From NCBI RefSeq assembly GCF_009914755.1, contig NC_060938.1: a stretch of DNA of 64,000 bases. One strand, given 5' to 3'. The notes beneath the pieces are model-generated. The model was not told where the DNA came from, ran no database searches, and saw only the letters and a program-made list of their open reading frames with translations. Below are positions 10,401 to 10,481 of the stretch, one piece after another. How positions within the stretch are numbered: the first letter of the stretch is position 1; every line of letters starts with the position of its first letter. The DNA is from the human T2T-CHM13v2.0 reference genome, Homo sapiens. The position numbers and the translations under genes are program-made.

Positions 10401-10412
10401 TGGTTTGCTGGG

Positions 10413-10481
10413 TCATCTTCTCTTTCGAATTTCTTGCCTACACGCTGAGATAGGCTGATTAGAGTCATCACTTTCTTCCAT
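10413..10481 (-). other. 22-codon uORF in frame with FSCB (probable ancestral N-terminus)
   Basis: ATG at 10481 (gaaATGG) is 81 nt upstream of the FSCB ATG; it reads MEESDDSNQPISACRQEIRKRR, then TGA at 10415-10413, then PSKP-M. Confidence 0.85.

What the first reader, a model, noticed from the sequence alone, without database searches (positions are those of the whole stretch)
10401..10481. FSCB appears to have lost its ancestral N-terminus to a single nonsense codon, leaving an in-frame uORF and removing an RR(R)PS PKA site
Seen: an ATG at 10481 lies exactly 27 codons upstream of the annotated ATG (10400) in the same frame. The frame reads MEESDDSNQPISACRQEIRKRR-TGA-PSKP-MVGKSQQT with only that one stop, and an in-frame stop at 10515-10517 makes 10481 the first possible start. 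The upstream ATG has strong Kozak context (G-3, G+4), while the annotated one has C-3. Inference: the TGA ends an Arg run and is one CpG transition from CGA (Arg). Restoring it gives an 852-aa protein with RKRRRPS, a canonical PKA R-R-x-S site, in a protein known as a sperm PKA substrate. My recollection that mouse Fscb begins MEECEEPEEPISLGRQEYRRRRRPSQPMVDKSQQT fits this but needs verifying. The human protein would then depend on leaky scanning, re-initiation 12 nt after the stop, or readthrough of a leaky UGA-C. That implies a lineage-specific hypomorph or a translational switch in a sperm-tail gene.
Basis: partly seen in the sequence, partly recalled or inferred. Interest (0 to 1): 0.88.

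Follow-up and report, generated by a model that had tools for sequence, protein, structure and literature searches.

The report
Human FSCB lost its ancestral N-terminus
A single stop codon cuts off the first 27 codons that nearly all other mammals keep at the front of the sperm-tail protein FSCB, so the human protein starts at an inner methionine, lacks the protein's only textbook PKA motif, and carries the old start as a small upstream reading frame.

Summary
On the minus strand an ATG at 10481-10479 opens the frame of the annotated FSCB start (10400-10398). That frame is broken only by TGA 10415-10413.

The 22-codon remnant aligns residue for residue with the first 22 residues of lemur FSCB (18 of 22, E 2e-10) and Tasmanian devil FSCB (13 of 22, E 2e-6). 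Of 57 named orthologue models, 50 carry this extension, including two New World monkeys, a lemur, mouse and a marsupial. It is the best-conserved 27-column block of the first 216 aligned columns.

Human FSCB has no RRx[ST] or [RK][RK]x[ST] motif. In mouse the only RRx[ST] lies in the lost segment.

Not settled:
- When the stop arose. No catarrhine sequence was visible in 3 of 3 protein searches.
- Which base was ancestral.
- Whether that serine is the real PKA site.
- How the main ORF is reached.

One of them was created by the same T that makes the stop.

Fscb-knockout mice are fertile, so the change may be nearly neutral. This is a real, apparently unreported, moderately interesting lineage-specific truncation of a known kind.

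The parts
10479..10481 (-). Ancestral FSCB start codon, now an upstream ATG (G at -3, G at +4)
   Evidence: It aligns with Met1 of orthologues.
10416..10481 (-). 22 sense codons of the remnant uORF (MEESDDSNQPISACRQEIRKRR), which are ancestral FSCB residues 1-22
   Evidence: 18 of 22 identical to lemur P0003 (E 2e-10). 13 of 22 identical to Tasmanian devil P0056 (E 2e-6).
10413..10415 (-). TGA stop at the position where 45 of 50 extension-bearing orthologues have Arg (residue 23); followed by C
10401..10412 (-). 12-nt spacer, in frame, reading PSKP. It is the ancestral PSQP and holds the Ser of the RRxS motif.
   Evidence: The Ser25 equivalent is Ser in 48 of 50.
10398..10400 (-). Annotated human start codon (C at -3, G at +4). 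It corresponds to the inner Met28 of orthologues.
   Evidence: Met at this position in 49 of 50 extension-bearing orthologues, Thr in Aotus.
7923..10400 (-). Annotated FSCB coding sequence, 825 codons plus stop
10375..10416 (-). Out-of-frame uORF of 13 codons. The T of its ATG (10416-10414, A at -3) is the same base as the first base of the TGA. It overlaps the annotated start.
   Evidence: The base overlap is read directly.
10394..10468 (-). Out-of-frame uORF of 24 codons (ATG 10468, G at -3) ending just past the annotated ATG
10508..10630 (-). Four further upstream ATGs of the annotated 5' leader: 10630 (6 codons, A at -3, G at +4), 10625 (2 codons), 10613 (14 codons), 10579 (23 codons, stop 10510-10508)
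10515..10517 (-). In-frame TGA that closes the FSCB frame upstream of the ancestral start
10401..10696 (-). Annotated 5' leader of NM_032135.4 (296 nt)
   Evidence: and the RefSeq rows supplied with the finding.

Best explanation
On the lineage leading to humans, after the split from New World monkeys, one base change turned codon 23 of FSCB (Arg in most mammals) into TGA.

Shown:
- The ancestral start codon and its first 22 codons remain in the annotated mRNA as a short in-frame upstream ORF.
- The protein annotated in humans begins at the conserved inner methionine, the equivalent of Met28.
- The 27 lost residues are the best-conserved block of the N-terminal region.
- They hold the acidic MEESDEPDQP stretch and the basic RKRRRPS stretch, and so the only RRx[ST] motif of most orthologues. 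Human FSCB has none left.

Inferred:
- Ribosomes reach the human start by leaky scanning past, or re-initiation after, the remnant uORF. This follows the scanning model: a strong-context AUG, a short uORF and a 12-nt spacer.
- Output is probably lowered further by the new out-of-frame AUG that the same base change created, and by the other upstream AUGs.
- Human FSCB has probably lost the main PKA input described for the mouse protein.
- Because FSCB is dispensable in mice and evolves fast, the change was most likely tolerated rather than selected.
For: - Sequence anatomy.
- Remnant peptide versus orthologues: 18 of 22 with lemur (E 2e-10) and 13 of 22 with Tasmanian devil (E 2e-6).
- 50 of 57 named orthologue models carry the extension. 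These include Sapajus, Aotus, Propithecus, mouse, rat, dog, horse, pika and Sarcophilus.
- Aotus has Thr at Met28, so it cannot start there.
- In 39 non-redundant N-termini, the extension has mean column identity 0.858. The seven following 27-column blocks score 0.595 to 0.796.
- Human FSCB has 0 RRx[ST] and 0 [RK][RK]x[ST] motifs. Mouse P0041 has a single RRx[ST], at residues 22-25.
- The annotated transcript, tagged 'select', starts at 10696. A CRE-like octamer lies 36-43 nt upstream of that point, and a divergent lncRNA starts at 10822. Both fit a promoter upstream of 10696.
- FSCB is described as a PKA target in passages of PMC7401351 and in the title of Li et al. 2007 as cited there.
- Human FSCB protein has been reported in semen proteomics (review passage).
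- Tolerance: Fscb-knockout mice have normal motility and fertility. FSCB is disrupted in the naked mole-rat. Omega is slightly above 1 among mice.
Against: - No catarrhine sequence could be seen, so the branch on which the stop arose is unknown.
- No population data were at hand, so fixation is only inferred from RefSeq annotating the 825-codon ORF.
- The PKA-phosphorylated residue of FSCB was not seen in any paper read. The three primary papers were not held, and supplements that may list phosphosites (PMC7582274, PMC13588705) are closed.
- No CAGE, long-read or ribosome-profiling data were at hand. The share of testis transcripts that contain 10481, and the real initiation sites, are untested.
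- With seven upstream ATGs in the annotated leader, efficient scanning to 10400 seems hard. That may mean a shorter leader is used in spermatids.
- 7 of 57 orthologue models also begin at the inner Met. Two of these are marked partial. Without DNA I cannot tell annotation choice from independent truncations.
Confidence: 0.8

Rival explanations
1. Truncation without a uORF effect. In spermatids most FSCB transcripts start downstream of 10481. The old start is then not in the mRNA, and the protein is simply made from the first AUG of a short leader.
For: The annotated leader holds seven upstream ATGs, two of them in strong context. That is unfavourable for scanning to 10400. No transcript-end data were available here.
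Against: The only annotated transcript, tagged 'select', starts at 10696. A CRE-like octamer sits 36-43 nt upstream of that point. A divergent lncRNA begins at 10822. All three fit a promoter upstream of 10696. The octamer is weak evidence: 14 such sites occur in 64 kb against 12.9 expected.
Confidence: 0.2
2. An evolved translational switch. The remnant uORF, the new overlapping uAUG and the upstream uORFs make FSCB synthesis depend on re-initiation conditions, and this was selected.
For: Multi-uORF architecture. A short 22-codon uORF with a strong start lies 12 nt before the main AUG.
Against: There is no evidence of selection. The knockout has no phenotype in mice. The region shows no unusual RNA structure (z -0.40). 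A nonsense change in a dispensable gene is explained more simply by drift.
Confidence: 0.1
3. Stop-codon readthrough or recoding of the UGA keeps making a full-length 852-residue protein with the PKA motif in useful amounts.
For: The stop is UGA followed by C, a context recalled from the readthrough literature as comparatively leaky (recalled, not tested here). The frame is open from 10481 to the main ORF apart from this stop.
Against: - No SECIS or other Rfam family reached E <= 1 with any relevance in 7400-10900. All 5 weak matches fall far below gathering scores and none is a recoding element.
- No stable structure lies downstream of the stop (z -0.40; 66 of 200 shuffles fold as well).
- The bases after UGA are CCCA, not the CUAG motif recalled for high readthrough.
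Confidence: 0.05
4. The extension in other mammals is an artefact of gene-prediction pipelines that take the longest ORF. On this view Met28 is the true start everywhere and humans lost nothing.
For: 7 of 57 models begin at the inner Met. Most orthologue entries are automatic predictions (names).
Against: - An untranslated leader would not keep an open frame and 0.858 mean column identity across 39 non-redundant therian sequences, higher than the coding blocks that follow.
- Aotus lacks Met28.
- The mouse entry of 1074 residues includes the extension. I recall this length as that of the cloned mouse protein.
Confidence: 0.03
5. The TGA is a rare or assembly-specific allele of CHM13 and most people carry the sense codon.
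For: Only one human genome could be read here, and the locus is single-copy in it.
Against: RefSeq's curated NM_032135.4 annotates the 825-codon ORF starting at 10400 rather than an 852-codon ORF. This implies that the transcript evidence behind it has the stop too. I recall the UniProt human entry as 825 residues (recalled).
Confidence: 0.04

Closest known systems
FSCB (fibrous sheath CABYR-binding protein) of other mammals, e.g. mouse FSCB (P0041, 1074 aa)
   Same: Orthologous single-exon gene. The N-terminal region after Met28 is 48-84% identical to human across the 49 hits, followed by proline/glutamate/alanine-rich repeats.
   Different: The human protein lacks residues 1-27, including the RKRRRPS stretch. 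It has no RRx[ST] motif at all, whereas mouse has exactly one, in that stretch.
uORFs created by mutation in a 5' leader (known class of regulatory or disease variants; recalled from the general literature)
   Same: A strong-context AUG upstream of the main start, with a stop before the main AUG, is expected to lower main-ORF translation.
   Different: Here the uORF is not a new AUG. It is the relic of the ancestral coding start, cut off by a stop. The same base change also made a second, overlapping out-of-frame uAUG.
Lineage-specific nonsense changes rescued by a downstream in-frame AUG (N-terminal truncation instead of pseudogenisation; a known kind of event, recalled)
   Same: An early stop close to the start and a conserved inner Met 5 codons downstream. 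The rest of the ORF stays open for 825 codons.
   Different: The lost piece is the most conserved block of the N-terminal region and carries the only canonical PKA motif.
FSCB gene loss in the naked mole-rat (bioRxiv 10.1101/2024.11.26.625329; passages read)
   Same: Damage to FSCB in a lineage thought to have weak sperm competition.
   Different: The naked mole-rat shows gene disruption. Humans keep an open 825-codon ORF, and the protein is reported in semen proteomics.

Membership tests
FSCB orthologue group | Significant full-length similarity to named FSCB proteins | tested here: met
   49 named FSCB hits with E from 4e-95 to 6e-32 for human residues 1-200.
FSCB orthologue group | N-terminal MEES...R[KR]RR[RK]PSQP extension before MVDKSQQT | tested here: not met
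   Present in 50 of 57 orthologue models. In human it is interrupted by TGA 10415-10413.
Upstream ORF (uORF) of an mRNA | AUG and in-frame stop inside the 5' leader of the mature transcript | tested here: met
   ATG 10481 and TGA 10415 lie within the annotated leader 10696-10401 of NM_032135.4.
Upstream ORF (uORF) of an mRNA | Transcript ends in testis that include the uAUG, and ribosome occupancy of the uORF | not testable with these tools
PKA substrate site (R-R-x-S/T consensus; consensus recalled) | Motif present in the ancestral segment and conserved | tested here: met
   RRx[ST] occurs in the extension in 45 of 50 extension-bearing models. A further 2 have [RK][RK]x[ST] and 3 have neither. 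It is absent from the human protein.
PKA substrate site (R-R-x-S/T consensus; consensus recalled) | Demonstrated phosphorylation of that serine by PKA | not tested
   The primary papers were not held. Phosphosite tables are in closed supplements (PMC7582274, PMC13588705).
Programmed stop-codon readthrough | Stimulatory context or downstream RNA structure | tested here: not met
   UGA is followed by CCCA. Folding of 10330-10500 gives z -0.40. Readthrough itself was not measured.
Selenocysteine recoding of UGA | SECIS element in the mRNA | tested here: not met
   No SECIS match at E <= 1 in 7400-10900 on either strand.
Unitary pseudogene | Loss of the open reading frame or of the protein product | tested here: not met
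   825 codons remain open after the inner Met. The protein is named in a human semen proteomics review passage.

The most novel reading that the evidence does not exclude
The stop arose late, on the hominoid or human branch, and uncoupled FSCB from PKA. Human fibrous-sheath signalling during capacitation would then differ from the mouse model on which FSCB's function is based. At the same time the relic uORF, together with the overlapping uAUG made by the same base change, would put FSCB synthesis in spermatids under re-initiation control.
Probability: 0.1. Interest if true: 0.65.

Novelty: new member of a known kind. Interest (0 to 1): 0.45.

Why it matters
FSCB was defined in the mouse as a PKA-phosphorylated partner of CABYR in the sperm fibrous sheath, as passages of PMC7401351 describe it. 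The title of Li et al. 2007, as cited in the naked mole-rat preprint, says the same.

If the only canonical PKA motif sits in a segment that humans do not translate, mouse results on FSCB phosphorylation and capacitation may not carry over to human sperm. Antibodies or constructs designed from one species may also mislead in the other.

The case is also a clean example of a coding start turned into a uORF by one base change, testable with simple reporters.

Its weight is limited because Fscb-null mice are fertile with normal sperm motility.

Tried and rejected
**Dating the stop within catarrhines.** Three protein searches returned no ape or Old World monkey protein:
- human residues 1-200 of the whole protein;
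- Sapajus residues 1-110;
- human residues 1-250 as a stand-alone query, to reach shorter models.

In these searches 746, 36 and 391 candidates respectively were hidden as sample-only or of untold source. The blank therefore says nothing about those species. No primate DNA collection is available.

**Older paralogue or retrocopy.** I looked in the human genome for a copy that might keep the ancestral codon. Only the locus itself matched.

**Selenocysteine or structured recoding.** Rejected. The Rfam scan gave 5 weak matches, none relevant, and the fold has z -0.40.

- FSCB with uORF gave 0 papers.
- FSCB with PhyloCSF gave 1 paper and FSCB with readthrough gave 2; judged by title and abstract start only, none is relevant.
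- FSCB with 'stop codon' gave 13 papers. By title, none is about the human N-terminus.
- I read only passages, not whole texts, of PMC7401351, bioRxiv 10.1101/2024.11.26.625329, PMC7582274, bioRxiv 10.1101/2024.07.25.605203, PMC13588705, PMC9583833, PMC3948348, PMC4770485 and PMC3398308.
- Li et al. 2007 (JBC), Zhang et al. 2016 and Liu et al. 2011 were not held. What they say about phosphosites or the human orthologue is unknown to me.

**Relative substitution counts.** Counting changes in the extension (human versus New World monkeys, by eye) to date the stop gave no usable signal. I dropped it.

**Structure prediction and the Atlas search.** Not used. The segment is short and looks unstructured, and they would not bear on the question.

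Full report
**1. What is in the sequence**

FSCB lies on the minus strand as a single exon, 10696 to 7562, with coding part 10400 to 7923 (and the RefSeq rows given with the finding).

- Reading the minus strand from 10520 gives a stop at 10517-10515.
- After that stop come 11 sense codons without ATG, then ATG at 10481-10479.
- Twenty-one further sense codons follow, then TGA at 10415-10413.
- Four sense codons (PSKP) come next, and then the annotated ATG at 10400-10398.
- The upstream ATG has G at -3 and G at +4. The annotated one has C at -3 and G at +4.
- The annotated ORF has 825 codons, so the uninterrupted frame would have 852.

**2. Is the upstream frame the old N-terminus?**

Yes.

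- Three protein searches returned 57 named FSCB orthologue models (sequences).
- Fifty of the 57 carry a 25- to 27-residue extension before the MVDKSQQT motif. In 49 of them it opens the model; in the deer model P0031 it lies internally, after 105 other residues.
- The consensus of the extension is MEESDEPDQPISAGRQEIRKRRRPSQP.
- These 50 include two New World monkeys (Sapajus, Aotus), a lemur (Propithecus), murid and cricetid rodents, carnivores, ungulates, a bat, a mole, a pika and the Tasmanian devil.
- The human 22-residue remnant aligns without gaps to residues 1-22 of the lemur protein (18 of 22, E 2e-10) and of the Tasmanian devil protein (13 of 22, E 2e-6).
- Among 39 N-termini that differ in their first 120 residues, the extension has mean column identity 0.858. 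That is the highest of eight successive 27-column blocks; the others score 0.595 to 0.796.
- An untranslated leader would not behave like this over therian evolution, and in Aotus the inner Met is Thr. The extension is therefore coding in other mammals, and the human state is derived.

Seven of the 57 models start at the inner Met: Sciurus vulgaris, giant panda (partial), Peromyscus, Mus spicilegus, Scotinomys (partial), narwhal and pangolin. Without their DNA I cannot tell annotation choice from independent truncation.

**3. The codon that became the stop**

- At the equivalent position, 45 of 50 orthologues have Arg, 2 Lys, 1 His, 1 Leu and 1 Gln.
- His, Leu and Gln are one step from CGN but two from AGA or AGG. 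Lys is one step from AGA or AGG.
- In human the two preceding Arg codons are AGA, and the one before Lys is CGA.
AGA-to-TGA is not excluded.

**4. Timing**

The stop is absent from both New World monkeys and the lemur, so it arose after the platyrrhine-catarrhine split.

No ape or Old World monkey protein appeared in any of the three searches. Hundreds of candidates were hidden as being of untold source. The human cluster itself was not listed either.

The stop may be human-specific, ape-specific or shared by all catarrhines. On branch length alone a human-only origin is the less likely case (my estimate, not a computation). The locus is single-copy in T2T-CHM13, so no older paralogue helps.

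**5. What was lost**

- The human protein has no RRx[ST] motif, no [RK][RK]x[ST] motif, and only three Rxx[ST] matches.
- In 45 of the 50 extension-bearing models an RRx[ST] motif sits in the extension. A further 2 have [RK][RK]x[ST] there, and 3 have neither.
- In most models, mouse included, it is the only RRx[ST] in the whole protein.
- The serine is kept in 48 of 50.
- FSCB is described as a PKA substrate in the passages I read (title of Li et al. 2007 as cited).
- The papers that might name the residue were not held, and phosphosite tables are in closed supplements.

That human FSCB has lost its main PKA site is therefore an inference from motif and conservation, not a demonstrated fact. 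The acidic start MEESDEPDQP is lost as well; its role is unknown.

**6. Translation**

The annotated leader of 296 nt holds seven ATGs before the annotated start.

| ATG position | uORF length (codons) | Context / note |
|---|---|---|
| 10630 | 6 | A at -3, G at +4 |
| 10625 | 2 | |
| 10613 | 14 | |
| 10579 | 23 | |
| 10481 | 22 | the relic of the ancestral start |
| 10468 | 24 | out of frame; ends at 10394, just past the main ATG |
| 10416 | 13 | out of frame; A at -3; ends at 10375, inside the main ORF |

The T of the ATG at 10416-10414 is the same base as the T of the TGA at 10415-10413. The one substitution therefore made both a stop in the FSCB frame and a new overlapping upstream start.

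Under the scanning model (established knowledge), a strong-context AUG captures most ribosomes. Re-initiation after a short uORF is possible but inefficient over a 12-nt spacer. Overlapping uORFs are inhibitory. I therefore expect lower FSCB output per mRNA in humans than in species with the intact frame, if the transcripts do include this leader.

Support for the annotated start at 10696 is indirect:
- the 'select' tag of the transcript;
- a one-mismatch CRE-like octamer at 10732-10739, 36 to 43 nt upstream (such sites occur 14 times in the window against 12.9 expected, so this is weak);
- a divergent lncRNA starting at 10822.

There is no sign of recoding. No SECIS was found, and no unusual fold surrounds the stop (z -0.40).

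Human FSCB protein does exist, according to a review passage on semen proteomics.

**7. Consequence**

- Fscb-knockout mice have normal testes, sperm morphology, motility and litter size: 9.6 versus 8.8 pups per litter in controls.
- FSCB is listed among disrupted sperm genes of the naked mole-rat.
- Fscb has omega slightly above 1 among mice.

A gene under such weak constraint can lose its N-terminus by drift. This is my preferred reading. Against pure neutrality stands the strong conservation of exactly the lost block across therians. That is why the case keeps some interest.

**8. Comparison and novelty**

The event belongs to known kinds. It is an early nonsense change rescued by a downstream in-frame AUG, and a uORF made by mutation. 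It is not a pseudogene, since the ORF is open and the protein is reported.

Within the held library I found no paper that reports it (searches; listings and passages only). Subscription papers, including the founding FSCB paper, were not visible, so it may have been noted there.

**9. Verdict**

- Observation: confirmed.
- Evolutionary interpretation: supported.
- Lineage, ancestral base, identity of the PKA site, translation mechanism and phenotypic effect: untested.
- Interest: moderate (0.45).

Noticed in passing
window 10414-10416 (minus strand): The T that begins the TGA is also the middle base of a new out-of-frame ATG (A at -3). Its 13-codon ORF overlaps the annotated start, so one substitution produced both a stop and an overlapping uAUG.
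   Followed up: partly
window 10508-10630 (minus strand): Four more upstream ATGs lie in the annotated leader ahead of the ancestral start (uORFs of 6, 2, 14 and 23 codons). If other mammals share this leader, even the ancestral start was reached past uORFs.
   Followed up: no
window 10732-10739: A CRE-like octamer (one mismatch to the recalled palindromic consensus) lies 36-43 nt upstream of the annotated FSCB start. It fits a spermatid CREM-type promoter but is weak statistically: 14 sites in 64 kb against 12.9 expected.
   Followed up: partly
window 10696-10822: FSCB and the lncRNA LOC105370473 start 126 bp apart on opposite strands, which looks like a bidirectional promoter.
   Followed up: no
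window 8265-9454: Coding tandem repeats occur inside FSCB. There is a 36-bp unit x 7.1 copies at 97% matches (8334-8588, the PAEEAPAEVQPP run) and 51-bp arrays at 8556-9149 and 9235-9454. This explains the wide length range of orthologue models (403-1074 aa).
   Followed up: no
window 10392-10394 (codon 3 of the human protein): Human has Gly where 56 of 57 orthologues have Asp and one has Asn (MVGK versus MVDK). This is a second derived change right at the new N-terminus.
   Followed up: no
P0002 (Aotus nancymaae): The inner Met used as the human start is Thr in Aotus, so this species depends entirely on the upstream start.
   Followed up: no
P0008, P0009, P0036, P0037, P0045, P0049, P0057: Seven orthologue models begin at the inner Met: squirrel, panda, deer mouse, Mus spicilegus, singing mouse, narwhal and pangolin. 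These may be annotation choices or independent truncations; no DNA was at hand to tell which.
   Followed up: no
P0021 (Ovis hybrid) and P0031 (Cervus): P0021 carries two precomputed Pfam domains (PF04719, PF00808) that no other FSCB hit has. P0031 has about 105 extra residues before the MEEK start. Both are probably merged or mis-started gene models.
   Followed up: no
about 170 kb downstream of FSCB, outside the window: A preprint reports a region depleted of Neanderthal ancestry about 170 kb downstream of FSCB (passages of bioRxiv 10.1101/2024.07.25.605203). No link to the stop codon is shown.
   Followed up: no
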